This document shows positions 19,701 to 40,128 of a stretch of DNA of 64,000 nucleotides, piece after piece (within the stretch, counting starts at the first letter, position 1; each line of letters begins with the position of its first letter). Made by a program: the position numbers. Source of the DNA: Octopus vulgaris (Eukaryota); assembly GCA_951406725.2 (NCBI GenBank), contig OX597827.1:81468001-81532000 (forward strand), in the 5' to 3' direction.

Positions 19701-20593
19701 CATTAAACGATGATGATGAAGAATCAATATACAGGTTTATGTACAATACACACTTTATGTATTAATGATCACTTATTCTGATGAGAAAGGGGGAAAAAAA
19801 AGGGGTGGTGAGCTGGCAGAATCCTTCGGAGGCCAGGCGAAATGCCTAGAAGTCTTTTGTCTGTTGTTATGTTCTGAGTTCAAATTCTGCTGAAGTCGGC
19901 TTTGCCTTTCATCCTTTTGGTGTCAATTAAATAAGTACCAGTCATGCACTGGGGTTGATGTATTCGACTTAATCCCTTTGTCTGGCCTTGTTTGTTCCCT
20001 TTATGTTTAGCCCCCTGTGGGCAATAAAGAAATAAATACATACTTTATGTAATACACAACAGGTAGAGTGCCAAAGAAATTATTATCAGTCATCTTCATC
20101 TTCTTCCTCCTCCTCCTCACCATCATCCCCCACTACCACCACCATTTCTGACTGTGTTCTATCTTCTTATCTTCCAGTTACCCACCCGAATCAAGAAATA
20201 AGATGTCACAGTTCCTCCTTTCGAGGGACAACAGTCACCGGACTGCAAACGTTTCACACTGGACATTACAAGTGAAACGAAGACAACAACAATAACAATA
20301 ACAACAAGTAAATAAAAATTACACAGAAACATGACAGTGCATGTGGAATATATATGAGCATGAGTGTATATATGTATGTATAAATATATATATATATATG
20401 TATATATATATAAAAATTTTCAGAATGAGATAAAAATCCAAGGCTGTGAAAGATTTTAGAACATTTATAAATAGGTCTTACAGCTGTTTCTGGGATATAT
20501 ATATACACTCACTCACACATAACTACATATTTATATATACATTCATATATTAATGTATATATATATATATATATATACACAAACATGCATATA

Positions 20594-20635
<42 letters not shown>

Positions 20636-20677
20636 AACATGCATATGAATATATATATATAGGTGTATATATGTATC

Positions 20678-20722
<45 letters not shown>

Positions 20723-20832
20723 ATATATAAAGTTTTTATATATATATATATATTTATATATATACACACACACATCACATGCACACACACACATAACTAC
20801 ATATTTATATGTACATTAATAAATGAATGTAA

Positions 20833-20911
<79 letters not shown>

Positions 20912-21147
20912 CACACACACATGCATTTACACTAGGTGATATATTGCACTAGAATATCTGATAACTCACCACCACTCATTTTATAGCATGCAACATACCA
21001 AGATTAAACCTTTTCCAGAGTGCATACCAATACCACATCTCCACCCTACCACACCACATACCACTGCATGCTGACATCATTACTCATAACTGCAGCACGA
21101 AATATAAATGCACAGAAAAGTGCAGTGATACTGTAACGTGCCTGCAT

Positions 21148-35400: not shown

Positions 35401-38400
35401 GTGTGTTTAAGAGGTTTGCTCTGCAATCATGTGGTTCTAAGTTCAATCCCACAGAGTGGCAATGTGTTTTTTTTTACAACAGTGCTCCAGTATGGCCAGA
35501 ATCTAATGACTGAGACAAGTAAAAGGCTAAAATAATCCAAGAATTCATAGTAGAAGGACTTTTAAAATAGTTTCTGAAACATTTTAATAGGAACTATTGA
35601 TGCTTCTTATCCTCAAGATGGGGTCGGGGAAGAATACTCAACCACATGGAACTGAAGGAGCTGTGAGGGAAGGGTCCACATATTTTGGTATCATTGCATT
35701 TAAAAAAAATGTCAAACCATTCTTTCTTTTGTTTTTAAAACCATTTTATCCATGTGTATGAAGCCATTCTATCTTTCTATATAAAACTCAATCTTTTTGC
35801 ATTTAACCATTTCGTCTTTCAGTTTGAAAACAATTCCATTTTTCTCTTTCTCTTTCAGTTACCAACTCGAATCAAAAGATAATAGGTAAACCACAGCACC
35901 AAATGACCAAATTCATTCTCCATTACTTAATTCTCTTATTTTGTCAACACTTCTTCCATCATTCCTGCAACACTTTTCACCAAATTGCCTAATTAACTTG
36001 TTTTAATCATTTATTTTTTATTTATATTCTTTTTTTTTCAATTTTTTACCTTAATGATTCATTTTTCTTCCAATTATTTTTTCTGTTTATTTTTTAAATA
36101 TTTTTTACACAAAAAATTATACAAGAGGAATTTCCTTGGATGCTCTCAGGTTATTTGGCTTAGAAAAACCATTCCAGAATCTCCACAGAAATTGAAAAAT
36201 TTGCATAAATGGGATAAAGAGAGATTGCTTCCTGTATTGGTGTGTGTGTGAGTGTGTGTGTCTGTGTGTGTGTGTGTGTGTATTTGTGCATGCATGTGTG
36301 TGTTAATGTATATGAATATATATGTATAATATATATCATATATTTGTATAAATGCAGATAAATATATATGTTCATAAACTCATATATAAAATTATAAAGC
36401 AGGCATTAACTGATCATTTATACACACATGTATGAACATGTGTGTATATGGATACCCATTAAACATATATAACAGGCATATATACACTGCAAAATAGTAT
36501 ACCACACACACAGACCTACATAGTTGAATATAAACACACTGAAGTGTTATAGATTACACAACAGATCATATTATATACAGCCTTCTATTTTATACCCTTC
36601 ACATGGTTATTGCATAGGAGGATGAGAAGGCCTTCATACTTCTGTTAGTTGATCAGTAAGGATAACATGGATTCTAGCCAGAATTGTCAATGCTTTACAT
36701 ATTCTCTTCAGTCCATCTCAGAGTATGGGGACCAATAGAATAGAGGGAGTAATAGAGAACAGGGAGTAGGCTGCAGTTTGTGTCTGGAGTTGTGTGTCCG
36801 ATTCTCTCTGCTATAATGTATTGACAGGAGTATCTGTAATGCACGATATATGGATGTGGAGATGAGTATATGTATGCATGTGTGCATGCACAGATGGATC
36901 GATGGGTGGAGGATATATGAATGTATATATGTGTGTATATGCATGCATGGGTGAATGTATAGGTTGGTGTGTGTGTCTCAAGGTATGTATTTATGGATGT
37001 ATATGCACATGTATGTGTGTGTGTGTATATGTATTTGTATGTGTATGTATGTCCTTTAGTATATATGTATGTGTATGCATGGTTATGTTTGAATGCAGTA
37101 GGTATGTATGTATGAATGTATATGAGCTTATGTCTATACATGTGTATATATGTATGTGTGTCTATGTAAGCATGTATGTGTGTTTAAGTATGCATGCATG
37201 TATGTATGTATGTGTTTATACATAAACAAATGACTGACTGAATGTGTAAAAGTTAATGTGCTTAAGAAGCCAGAAAAATCCTTTCTACACACATACGCAC
37301 CTATTTATATAGACATGCATACATACATACATGCGTACACACACACACACACATACATGCATACAAACATACATACCTACTTACATGCATTCAAATATCA
37401 CCATGCATACATACACATACATCCATACATGTATACATCCACAGGTACATATGTAGACATATGCATGTATACATTCACACATACACATACGTGTGTGTGT
37501 GTGTATAAGATTCCTTCAAAGCTGAGTGTGTCTGTGAGTTCCTCCACAGACTCCATTTTTCTTCTGCTTCATCACTCACACTCGTCTTTGAATAAATCTT
37601 ATTCCACTCCAGTTCATCATTTTAACGACTGCTTGCCACATCATTGCACGCACACACACACCTATACACCCAGTTCATTATCTAGCTATGTATGCATGTG
37701 CATACGTACATACATATGTATGTACATACATATACACAAATATATATGTATGTACATACATATACACAAATATATATGCATATATATATATATGTGTATG
37801 TGTGTGTGTGTGTGTATACATATAAAAACAAACAAAATTGAATACACATACACAAGGTGTGTTGTGATACATACACACACACACACATATATATATACAC
37901 ATATATATATACACATATACATATATATACACATATACATATATATACACATATATATATATATACATACGTACATGAACTTGATAGGGAAACAAAATAA
38001 TAGGGAGGATAGATATAGTGATATAATGAGAGAGAGAGAGAGAGAAAGAGAGACAGAGAGAGAGGGGCAAGAGGGAGATGAGAGAGAAAGAGTTTGTGAT
38101 AAATCTATGATGAAACAAGTGCAACATCATCAACAAATAAGCTGCAACAGTTTATCAAAGAATTAATACATATGGATGCGTGTGTGTGTGTAAATAATTA
38201 TTTACATATATTTATGTATATATATACACACACACATATATATATTTGCATGTATGTATATATCTGTATGTGCAGAGATCAATGTATTATCTGTTTTTAT
38301 TGAACTGTTTTCTATTGATTGATTGATTCCAATATCTAAGATTTTTTTGTACAGATCAGTGATAACAATCGGATTGATCTGTTCGAATTTTATTGCCCAC

Positions 38401-38595
38401 GTTGCTTCATTAATCGATCAAAATAATTGGTTACGTTTACGATTTGTCTTTTTTCCTTTTAAAAAAAGAAAATATCTATAATGAATAAAGAAACAAATAC
38501 TTACATAAAAAAAACAATTAGGAAAAAACACCACCACCAACAACAACAATAATATCAACAACAAAATTAAATGCTTACATCGACAAGAATTGTAT

Positions 38596-38653
<58 letters not shown>

Positions 38654-39314
38654 GAATTTATGTATATCTATGTACATATATATATATATTAATAACAAAA
38701 TTATGAAATATCTGCCGAAATTGATCTTTATATCTGGCGTAATAAATGTTTGCGTGTTGTCTGCTTTCAATACCCTTCCCCACACACTGGAAACTATTTT
38801 ATCAACTATCTCTACAAGCTAGAGACATACTTACCTTTCCTTCGGATATTTTGTAAAATTTCCGTGTATATGGATTTTAAAAAGAAAATGGGAAAAAAAA
38901 ATATTAAAATTGGTCTTAATACAGAAAAATAATTGATAATTATTAAAAAGGTTGCCTTTCATATCATATAATATAAAATATATACATACATACACACATA
39001 TATGCATTTGCATATATATGTATGTATATGTATATGTGAATGGATGTATGCATGTATGTTTATGTATGTATATATATATGTGTGTATATATATTTCCTAT
39101 ATGAATGTGTGTTTATACTTATTGACTTTCTCCTGAACTTTCAAAAATCAAAATTAATTCAATGAAATTTAATAAACACTCTGTCACAAAAAATTTAAAA
39201 TTATACATACTGGATGTTAAAAAAAAATATCTATGCGCAATATTATTATGGTAAGTAAAAACTCTCTCAAGATGTACATGTGTGTATATATATATATATA
39301 CATACACACGTATA

Positions 39315-39367
<53 letters not shown>

Positions 39368-40128
39368 TATACATACACAAATATATGTGTGTATACATAT
39401 ATATATATATATATGTTCACACACATGCATACACATATATATACATATATATTTGTATATATATATTAGTATGGGCATGTATGTATACATCACTGTTTCA
39501 AGCTATTTCTATGACATTGTTAACTTTCTACACGTCCACATACATTGCTTATAATCATTGTCATAATGTATATATACATTTTATACCCAGCTCCCTGTTA
39601 TATATATATATATTGTACAAACACAGAGAAAAAAAAAAAAGGCGGGCAATGTATTCCTGCCCTCTCTTCTACAGAATCAGACATAAACCAAGAAGGGAGC
39701 CTCTACATTCAAATTGCTAGAAATAGCAGCTAAATCTCCCTCAGTCACATCCCATCATCTCAGACAAAACGACCACATTGCACAATGAAAGAGTGGATTT
39801 AAAAACAAAAGACAGATGCTCATTGCAAGAACGCCTTTTGGTCTGACGTCTGCTTGTTCAGGGCTGACCTGTTGCTAAGCAACAACAACAACAACAACAC
39901 CAGAAACAAACCCAAAAGGTTGACTGCAGCAGGATCAATAACAACAACAACAACAACAGTTACAGCCTCTGGTCCACATCTCTACTGCCACATGTTGCTA
40001 CTTGATTATCATGGATGATAGAATGGAGGTAGGTCAGGTTTATTGATATAATTTATCTTTAATGTAACAAATCAGTTCTTCTCTTACCTTCTCTCTCTCT
40101 GACACATACTGTCTCTATCTATCCATCA

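What the first reader, a model, noticed from the sequence alone, without database searches (positions are those of the whole stretch)
20178..40028. Hidden three-exon protocadherin unit: leader exon, large exon and 7-codon terminal exon repeated per gene
Seen: both large exons end in an identical phase-0 donor. Downstream of each (15.4 kb for A, 3.5 kb for B) a strong acceptor opens LPTRIKK* (20178) or LPTRIKR* (35859). The two differ by 3 synonymous changes and one K/R change amid unalignable flanks, which suggests purifying selection on a 7-aa basic tail. Each is followed by a homologous leader exon for the next gene (ending 21551 and 40028). Known: vertebrate clustered Pcdh alpha/gamma genes splice variable exons to shared constant exons. 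Inference: here each gene carries a private miniature constant exon, and because donors and phases are identical, cross-unit splicing (A exon to B tail) is frame-compatible. The ORF track shows none of this.
Basis: partly seen in the sequence, partly recalled or inferred. Interest (0 to 1): 0.82.

Follow-up and report, generated by a model that had tools for sequence, protein, structure and literature searches.

The report
Octopus protocadherin genes' tiny last exon
Two neighbouring octopus protocadherin genes each end in their own 7-codon last exon; this is a real but ordinary gene structure that public gene models of related octopods already show.

Summary
Both large exons end in the same phase-0 donor after 4777 and 32340. 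Each is followed on the + strand by a pyrimidine tract, CAG and seven codons plus a stop: LPTRIKK at 20178 and LPTRIKR at 35859. These are the only two such sites in the window, and 0 of 200 simulated sequences had one.

The decisive test was comparison with database proteins. Twelve of the 18 listed octopod models that share the cytoplasmic FYPQYESQ motif end, exactly at the donor position, in LPTRIKK, LPTRVKR, LPTRIPKR or similar. The micro-exon is therefore real and conserved between Octopus and Argonauta, and it is already annotated.

It is each gene's own last exon, copied along with the gene. This fits published statements that cephalopod protocadherins are multi-exonic whole-gene duplicates without shared final exons (PMC9068888).

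The "leader exons" are homologous to each other but non-coding. Their ATG frame stops four codons into the large exon, and the start Met with its signal peptide lies in the large exon. Cross-unit splicing has no support and would change only K to R.

Gene A carries a frameshift, and a third unit survives only as a fragment. No RNA data could be consulted. The finding is ordinary.

The parts
2305..4777 (+). Gene A large exon. The acceptor is before 2305 and the ATG is at 2352. It encodes six cadherin repeats, a transmembrane segment and the cytoplasmic part. The donor follows 4777. The frame is broken by a 1-bp deletion at 2652-2654.
4778..20177 (+). Last intron of gene A, 15,400 nt. It carries a reverse-transcriptase fragment on the minus strand (8392-9300) and many microsatellites.
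20178..20201 (+). Coding part of gene A's last exon (LPTRIKK plus stop). An AATAAA lies at 20311, so the 3' UTR is probably short.
21367..21551 (+). Candidate non-coding first exon of gene B. The 5' end is not defined. The donor is GAG|GTAAGT after 21551. It holds a short upstream ORF start, MDGKME.
29886..32340 (+). Gene B large exon. The acceptor is before 29886 and the ATG is at 29920. It encodes 807 codons: signal peptide, Cadherin_2 plus 5 cadherin repeats, a transmembrane segment and about 87 cytoplasmic residues. The donor follows 32340.
35859..35882 (+). Coding part of gene B's last exon (LPTRIKR plus stop), 3,518 nt after the donor.
39922..40028 (+). Second candidate non-coding first exon, homologous to 21367-21551. 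The donor is GAG|GTAGGT after 40028. No intact large exon follows within the window.
43592..44000 (+). 409-bp protocadherin fragment covering the transmembrane and cytoplasmic part, 98.8% identical to A 4309-4717. Both ends are sharp, and there is no donor and no tail. It is a pseudogene relic.

Best explanation
The window is a piece of an octopod protocadherin cluster, closest to Octopus vulgaris models, and is not human. It holds two head-to-tail genes built alike.

Each gene has three exons. The first is a short non-coding exon. The second is a roughly 2.45-kb exon encoding the signal peptide, six cadherin repeats, the transmembrane helix and about 87 cytoplasmic residues. The third is the gene's own last exon, which adds seven residues (LPTRIKK or LPTRIKR), the stop codon and the 3' UTR.

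Each gene splices its phase-0 donor to the tail exon that lies before the next gene's first exon. The tail exon was copied together with the rest of the gene in whole-gene tandem duplications. That is why it recurs once per unit. It is not a shared constant exon.

Later gene conversion homogenised most of the two large exons, including the donor, but not the introns or the tails.

The tail is a conserved, basic, extreme C-terminal cytoplasmic motif: L-P-T/A/K-R/W...K/R-K/R/C. By inference only, it serves as a short basic docking, membrane-lipid-binding or phospho-regulated end. This would be loosely like the lysine-rich C-terminus of vertebrate gamma-protocadherins.

Shown: the sequence anatomy, the duplication, the conversion tract, and agreement with database models.
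Inferred: actual splicing in this animal, the role of the first exon, and the function of the tail.

The confidence of 0.85 applies to the gene structure and to the private last exon. The first-exon assignment alone rates about 0.6 and the proposed tail function about 0.15.
For: (a) Pfam finds Cadherin_2 plus 5 Cadherin stretches in B, and the same in the two pieces of A.

(b) The homolog search with residues 560-807 of B gave 167 hits at E<=0.001, of which 120 were listed. Eighteen of the 120 carry FYPQYESQ. Twelve of those 18 end, at the position of the window's donor, in an LPxR...basic tail. None of the other 102 do.
- O. vulgaris P0004 ends ...SPPNTIL-LPTRIKK. Its last roughly 350 residues are 98-100% identical to gene A.
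- O. bimaculoides XP_014772602.1 (P0117) is 93% identical to B over 400 residues and ends ...TTIL-LPTRVKR.
- Argonauta hians P0005 and P0006 end LPTRIKK and LPTRLKK.
- An unnamed 132-aa fragment, P0125, ends LPTRLPKR.
- Across these 13 tails: L 13/13, P 13/13, T 10/13, R 11/13.

(c) The window has exactly two such sites. Both are on the + strand, each downstream of a donor, and 0 of 200 simulations gave one. Twenty of the 24 bases are identical, against 29% identity in the flanks.

(d) A and B are 96.3% identical over 2471-4794 and 30033-32357, and the flanks do not align.

(e) The first exons share two homologous blocks. Good acceptors lie 47 and 34 nt before the two start codons.

(f) Passages of PMC9068888 describe multi-exonic genes in one orientation, whole-gene duplication, gene conversion, fragmentary pseudogenes and no shared final exons. 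A passage of PMC10084454 describes large exons coding for the ectodomain and the transmembrane helix.

Against: No transcript data for this animal could be consulted, so none of the four junctions is shown directly.

Gene A has a frameshift, so its unit may be dead and its tail a relic.

Six of the 18 FYPQYESQ models leave the same boundary for other tails, so the LPTR tail is not the only annotated ending in the family.

The second first exon has no intact large exon behind it in the window.

The synonymous excess within the window pair alone is not significant (P=0.058).

The proposed tail function rests on analogy only. The tail has 3 basic residues, not a long lysine run, and a Thr rather than a Ser.
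Confidence: 0.85

Rival explanations
1. One reading: the tails act as interchangeable miniature constant exons, and donors of one unit are spliced to tails of downstream units (A exon to B tail). This would be a vertebrate-like variable/constant logic in small.
For: The donors are identical and phase 0, and both tail acceptors are phase 0, so the join is frame-compatible. Six of the 18 FYPQYESQ-type models diverge exactly at this donor into other endings, so alternative 3' exon choice at this donor is annotated in the family.
Against: An AATAAA lies about 110 nt after A's stop, and the next unit's own first exon lies 1.2 kb further on. Both argue that transcription ends between units.

Tails track their genes across species. 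The A-type end ...NTIL goes with LPTRIKK in the window and in P0004. The B-type end ...TTIL goes with a tail ending in R (LPTRIKR in the window, LPTRVKR in P0117).

A passage of PMC9068888 states that cephalopods do not splice first exons to shared final exons.

The product would differ by one conservative residue, so no diversity would be gained.

The donor identity is explained by the conversion tract.
Confidence: 0.06
2. The micro-exons are not used. The proteins end by read-through of the donor (A: ...TIL-VSCII-stop; B: ...TIL-VSCIIYYIV-stop), and the LPTRIK codons are chance or relic sequence.
For: Read-through stops after 5 and 9 codons, so a tail-less protein is possible. One family model, P0019, continues past the boundary with V-Y..., which could be intron read-through.
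Against: None of the 120 listed relatives ends in VSCII. Twelve of the 18 closest family members carry the LPTR-type tail, in four species and from more than one annotation source. The 24 bases are conserved amid flanks at the random level (P=5e-8). Both sites have strong acceptors, and 0 of 200 simulations gave such a site.
Confidence: 0.04
3. Only unit B is a working gene. Unit A has a frameshift in EC1 and the third unit has a first exon plus a 409-bp fragment, so both are decaying copies. What repeats 'per gene' is then partly a record of past duplications, not three active three-exon genes.
For: A has a 1-bp deletion at 2652-2654 relative to B, inside otherwise near-identical sequence. 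Behind the second first exon there is only the fragment 43592-44000, with sharp ends and no donor. A passage of PMC9068888 mentions fragmentary reading frames, likely pseudogenes, in these clusters.
Against: A single-base indel may be an assembly error. Apart from it, A has no stop in 712 codons. Its tail is identical to those of P0004 and P0005. The third gene's large exon could lie beyond base 64000.
Confidence: 0.35

Closest known systems
Octopod tandemly duplicated protocadherin genes. Public models: O. vulgaris 'protocadherin beta-15-like' (P0004), O. bimaculoides XP_014772602.1 (P0117), Argonauta hians 'protocadherin gamma-C4-like' (P0005, P0006). Described in PMC9068888, PMC6339937 and, by citation only, Albertin 2015 and Wang & Ragsdale 2017.
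   Same: The same domain set, the same cytoplasmic FYPQYESQ motif and the same 7-8-residue LPTR...basic ending at the same boundary. Head-to-tail orientation, multi-exon structure, a gene-conversion mosaic and pseudogene fragments.
   Different: Nothing of kind. The window's B tail (LPTRIKR) is a variant not seen among the 13 database tails. Gene A carries a frameshift in this assembly.
Vertebrate clustered protocadherin alpha and gamma genes (variable exons spliced to three shared constant exons).
   Same: There is a tandem array of large exons. Each encodes the whole ectodomain, the transmembrane helix and the proximal cytoplasmic part, and each ends in a donor (passages of PMC10084454, and the abstract of PMC4660814).
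   Different: No shared exons: each unit has its own last exon lying between the units. That exon encodes 7 residues, against 125 in the gamma constant domain (PMC10849722). A separate upstream non-coding exon appears to precede each large exon. The two expansions are independent (passage of PMC4978886).
Lysine-rich, phospholipid-binding, PKC-phosphorylated C-terminal motif of the vertebrate gamma-protocadherin constant domain (passages of PMC10849722).
   Same: An extreme C-terminal, cytoplasmic, basic motif with a hydroxyl residue a few positions upstream, encoded by the last exon.
   Different: Only 7-8 residues with 3 basic ones. It has Thr, not Ser. There is no sequence similarity, and neither lipid binding nor phosphorylation has been tested. 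This is a resemblance in kind only.

Membership tests
Protocadherin (cadherin superfamily) | N-terminal protocadherin-type EC1 (Pfam Cadherin_2) followed by further cadherin repeats, six in all | tested here: met
   In B, Cadherin_2 covers residues 28-112 (E=2.1e-7) and there are 5 Cadherin stretches (E=1.8e-66). In A, Cadherin_2 is found in the 2343-2687 piece and 5 Cadherin stretches in 2642-4777.
Protocadherin (cadherin superfamily) | Signal peptide, a single transmembrane helix, and a cytoplasmic part without the classical-cadherin catenin-binding domain | tested here: met
   Read directly: a hydrophobic N-terminus (LFFLLSIFALFW) and one hydrophobic stretch at about residues 692-720. Pfam lists no cytoplasmic cadherin domain among the 3 families hit. 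No dedicated signal-peptide or transmembrane predictor was run.
Octopod tandem multi-exonic protocadherin genes | Head-to-tail paralogues, each a complete multi-exon gene (whole-gene duplication) | tested here: met
   The first-exon blocks, the large exons and the tail exons each occur once per unit, in the same order on the + strand. Published description: passages of PMC9068888.
Octopod tandem multi-exonic protocadherin genes | Protein ends as in annotated orthologues (large exon end plus LPTR-type tail) | tested here: met
   Twelve of 18 FYPQYESQ-type models, plus the fragment P0125, end in the tail at the donor position. The exons were compared separately.
Octopod tandem multi-exonic protocadherin genes | Splice junctions seen in transcripts | not testable with these tools
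Vertebrate-type clustered protocadherin locus (variable plus constant exons) | Many large variable exons share one set of constant exons at the 3' end of the cluster | tested here: not met
   Each large exon has its own tail exon before the next unit (20178 and 35859), and the two tails differ in sequence. A passage of PMC9068888 says cephalopods lack shared final exons.
Vertebrate-type clustered protocadherin locus (variable plus constant exons) | Large exon encodes the ectodomain, transmembrane helix and proximal cytoplasmic part and ends in a splice donor | tested here: met
Vertebrate-type clustered protocadherin locus (variable plus constant exons) | Promoter choice directly upstream of each variable exon | not testable with these tools
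   Here an acceptor lies 34-47 nt before each start codon, and a candidate non-coding exon lies 8.3 kb upstream of B. Promoter activity cannot be read from the sequence.

The most novel reading that the evidence does not exclude
The 7-8-residue basic tail is an octopod-specific functional module. In this reading it is a convergent, miniature counterpart of the lysine-rich, kinase-regulated, lipid-binding C-terminus that vertebrate protocadherins receive from their constant exons. Because it sits on its own exon, the cell can add it or replace it through choice of the last exon. Six of the 18 family models leave the same donor for other endings. That choice would tune trafficking or signalling of individual protocadherins.
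Probability: 0.12. Interest if true: 0.5.

Novelty: already known. Interest (0 to 1): 0.15.

Why it matters
It matters little as a discovery. The exon structure is what public octopod gene models already contain, and it agrees with the published view that cephalopods enlarged their protocadherin repertoire by duplicating whole multi-exon genes rather than by splicing to shared exons.

The window does give a clean local example of three things: whole-unit duplication, gene conversion with sharp borders, and decay of copies.

The one point that may deserve a look is the conserved basic tail. I found no paper that names it: 0 papers for five spellings of the tail and the FYPQYESQ motif. That search could not see supplements, the Albertin 2015 paper or the Wang & Ragsdale 2017 paper. 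Its conservation between Octopus and Argonauta suggests a function in the cytoplasmic end of one protocadherin subfamily.

Tried and rejected
(1) Coding leader. I read each exon in the frame set by the leader's ATG, without joining them. B's large exon gives GPEL-stop and A's gives a stop after 12 codons. An internal acceptor at 29956-57 is out of frame, read by hand. I rejected a coding role. It is a 5' UTR exon with a short upstream ORF at most.

(2) blastn between the two inter-unit regions and the whole-window self-comparison were swamped by TA/CA microsatellites. Only a targeted local alignment and a motif scan were informative.

It therefore stays unchecked whether P0004's 15-member cluster holds exact orthologues of A and B.

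(4) Albertin 2015 is not held, by PMC id or by DOI. Wang & Ragsdale 2017 was seen only as cited in PMC10084454. Supplements are closed. Styfhals 2019 Supplementary Table S1 and the Albertin 2015 extended data on 'octopus-specific motifs' may already list this motif.

(5) A search with only the cytoplasmic residues 725-807 gave 9 candidates and 6 hits, all already known.

(6) A full HMMER scan of 1.84 billion representatives with the same 83 residues gave 4 hits, and only P0125 was informative. No squid or non-cephalopod relative of the tail was seen. This is weak evidence for an octopod restriction.

(7) ER-retrieval KKXX motif (recalled rule: lysines at positions -3 and -4). The tail has its lysines at -1 and -2, so I rejected it by reading.

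(8) Pfam on 10 intronic and intergenic ORFs: 1 of 10 had a hit, RVT_1. There are no hidden genes in them.

(9) Slips: a wrong frame was corrected. A mistyped coordinate was corrected.

(10) The joined model (large exon plus tail, or first exon plus large exon) was deliberately not built, searched or folded. No structure or complex prediction was run.
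Full report
**What the window is.** The 64-kb window has about 36% G+C and no N. It carries two long + strand reading frames, 2642-4795 and 29911-32370, which translate into near-identical cadherin-repeat proteins. Pfam finds a protocadherin-type first domain (Cadherin_2) and five further cadherin stretches in B, and the same in the two pieces of A.

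The nearest database proteins are all octopod protocadherins from Octopus vulgaris, O. sinensis, O. bimaculoides and Argonauta hians. Fish protocadherins follow only at 26-31% identity. The window is cephalopod, not human, and nothing was withheld on that ground.

**The observation.**
- Both large exons end ...ATATTG|GTAAGT, with TTG a full codon. The last exon bases are 4777 and 32340.
- At 20178 and 35859, a pyrimidine tract (17 of 20 and 19 of 20) and CAG are followed by L-P-T-R-I-K-K-stop and L-P-T-R-I-K-R-stop.
- The 24 bases differ at four places: three synonymous changes and one K/R change.
- Ungapped flanks are 61 of 210 identical. The chance of 20 of 24 identities at that rate is 5e-8.
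- The synonymous excess by itself is only P=0.058.
- A scan of both strands for LPx[RWK]...basic-stop finds these two sites and no others. With a preceding AG required, 0 of 200 simulated windows had any.

**The decisive test.** The large exon of B (P0003) was searched alone, with residues 560-807. This gave 167 hits, of which 120 were listed. I then read the C-termini of the hits.

Eighteen of the 120 share the cytoplasmic motif FYPQYESQ. Twelve of those 18 continue, exactly where the window has its donor, with LPTRIKK, LPTRLKK, LPTRVKR, LPTRTLKR, LPARTLKR, LPTRTSKK, LPTRIQKC, LPTRIPKR or LPKWLPKR, and then end. None of the other 102 has such an end.
- O. vulgaris P0004 ends ...SPPNTIL-LPTRIKK, as predicted for gene A. 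It is 98-100% identical to A over its last roughly 350 residues.
- O. bimaculoides XP_014772602.1 is 93% identical to B over 400 residues and ends ...TTIL-LPTRVKR.
- A HMMER scan of 1.84 billion representatives with the 83 cytoplasmic residues added one unnamed fragment ending LPTRLPKR.

The micro-exon is therefore real, older than the Octopus-Argonauta split, and constrained. Across the 13 tails, L is 13/13, P 13/13, T 10/13 and R 11/13. It is also already contained in public gene models, so it is not hidden.

**What the repeated unit is.** A and B are 96.3% identical from 2471 to 4794 and from 30033 to 32357. The tract starts inside the first cadherin domain; upstream of it the proteins are only 44.6% identical. 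It stops 17 nt into the intron. Beyond that, the introns (15,400 and 3,518 nt) and the surroundings of the tails do not align.

The identical donors thus belong to a gene-conversion or recent-copy tract. The tails lie outside it and record the older divergence. P0004 is a mosaic of A-like, B-like and divergent blocks, which fits conversion.

This matches passages of PMC9068888: multi-exonic genes in one orientation, whole-gene duplication, homogenisation by gene conversion, fragmentary pseudogenes, and no splicing of first exons to shared final exons. A passage of PMC10084454, citing Wang & Ragsdale 2017, notes the large exons coding for the ectodomain and transmembrane helix. The tail is simply each gene's own last exon.

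**The 'leader exons'.** The two candidates are homologous.
- A 25-nt island at the donor occurs only at 21534-21558 and 40011-40035, with 0 matches in 100 shuffles.
- An 80-nt block aligns 21367-21448 with 39922-39993, score 45 against a maximum of 33 in 200 shuffles. A TA-repeat insertion lies between the blocks in the first copy.
- Good acceptors sit 47 nt (A, 2305) and 34 nt (B, 29886) before the start codons. An upstream exon is therefore expected.

These exons do not encode the cadherin. In the frame of the leader's ATG, B's large exon reads GPEL-stop and A's stops after 12 codons. The Met followed by a hydrophobic signal sequence is in the large exon. The four closest models start there. 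At best these are 5' UTR exons carrying a short upstream ORF. Whether they are used cannot be told without RNA.

Behind the second one, the window holds no intact large exon. There is only a 409-bp copy of A's transmembrane and cytoplasmic segment (43592-44000, 98.8% identical, sharp ends, no donor).

**Cross-unit splicing.** It is frame-compatible, trivially so. Several points argue against it:
- an AATAAA about 110 nt after A's stop;
- the next unit's first exon 1.2 kb further on;
- tails that follow their genes across species;
- the published statement cited above.

The product would differ only by K to R. Six of the 18 family models do leave the same boundary for other endings. Alternative last exons or read-through are therefore annotated in the family, but nothing points to a neighbour's tail. 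This remains untested.

**How it likely works.** Transcription starts at a promoter before the non-coding first exon. The large exon supplies almost the whole protein. The phase-0 donor is joined to the gene's own last exon, which adds a seven-residue basic cytoplasmic end and the 3' UTR.

What the tail does is inference. It resembles in kind the lysine-rich, phospholipid-binding, PKC-regulated last 15 residues of vertebrate gamma-protocadherins (passages of PMC10849722). I put about 0.1-0.2 on a comparable role. A KKXX retrieval signal (recalled rule) does not fit the positions of the lysines.

**Limits.**
- No cephalopod genome or transcript collection was available.
- Albertin 2015 is not held, and supplements are closed. 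Published motif tables may already name this tail.
- A text search for five spellings of the motifs found 0 papers.

**Verdict.** The structure is already known from annotation and fits the literature. Interest is low.

Noticed in passing
window 2652-2654: Gene A has AA where gene B has AAA, inside otherwise near-identical sequence. This splits A's reading frame between the first cadherin domain (ATG at 2352) and the rest. It is either a pseudogene or an assembly slip.
   Followed up: partly
window 2471-4794 and 30033-32357: This tract is 96.3% identical and has sharp borders. It starts inside EC1 and ends 17 nt into the intron. Flanks, introns and the N-terminal 98 residues are diverged (44.6% amino-acid identity). 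It is a gene-conversion or partial recent duplication mosaic. The O. vulgaris model P0004 is also a mosaic.
   Followed up: yes
window 43592-44000: A 409-bp copy of gene A's transmembrane and cytoplasmic segment, 98.8% identical. It breaks off after FYPQ and has no acceptor, donor or tail. It is a pseudogene relic 3.5 kb behind the second first exon.
   Followed up: yes
window 8392-9300 (-): A reverse-transcriptase (RVT_1) fragment lies inside gene A's 15.4-kb last intron. Retroelement insertion probably accounts for part of the size difference from B's 3.5-kb intron. It was the only one of 10 intronic and intergenic ORFs with a Pfam hit.
   Followed up: partly
window 21534-21551 and 40011-40028: Both candidate first exons end in a conserved short ORF start, MDGKME and MDDRME. 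This would be an upstream ORF ending before the cadherin start codon, and possibly a translational control element.
   Followed up: partly
window 2299-2310: The acceptor of gene A's large exon reads CAG|TTACCA, the same six exon bases as the tail exons (CAG|TTACCC and CAG|TTACCA). It is probably chance.
   Followed up: no
database proteins P0009, P0011, P0012, P0013, P0019, P0033: Six of the 18 FYPQYESQ-type octopod models diverge exactly at the position of the window's donor into unrelated endings. Several are labelled isoform X1 or X2. This points to alternative last exons or intron read-through in this subfamily.
   Followed up: partly
window 20350-20930, 37650-39490, 44460-46660 and elsewhere: Long TA/CA-rich microsatellite blocks fill much of the intergenic and intronic sequence. 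They dominate every self-comparison of the window.
   Followed up: no
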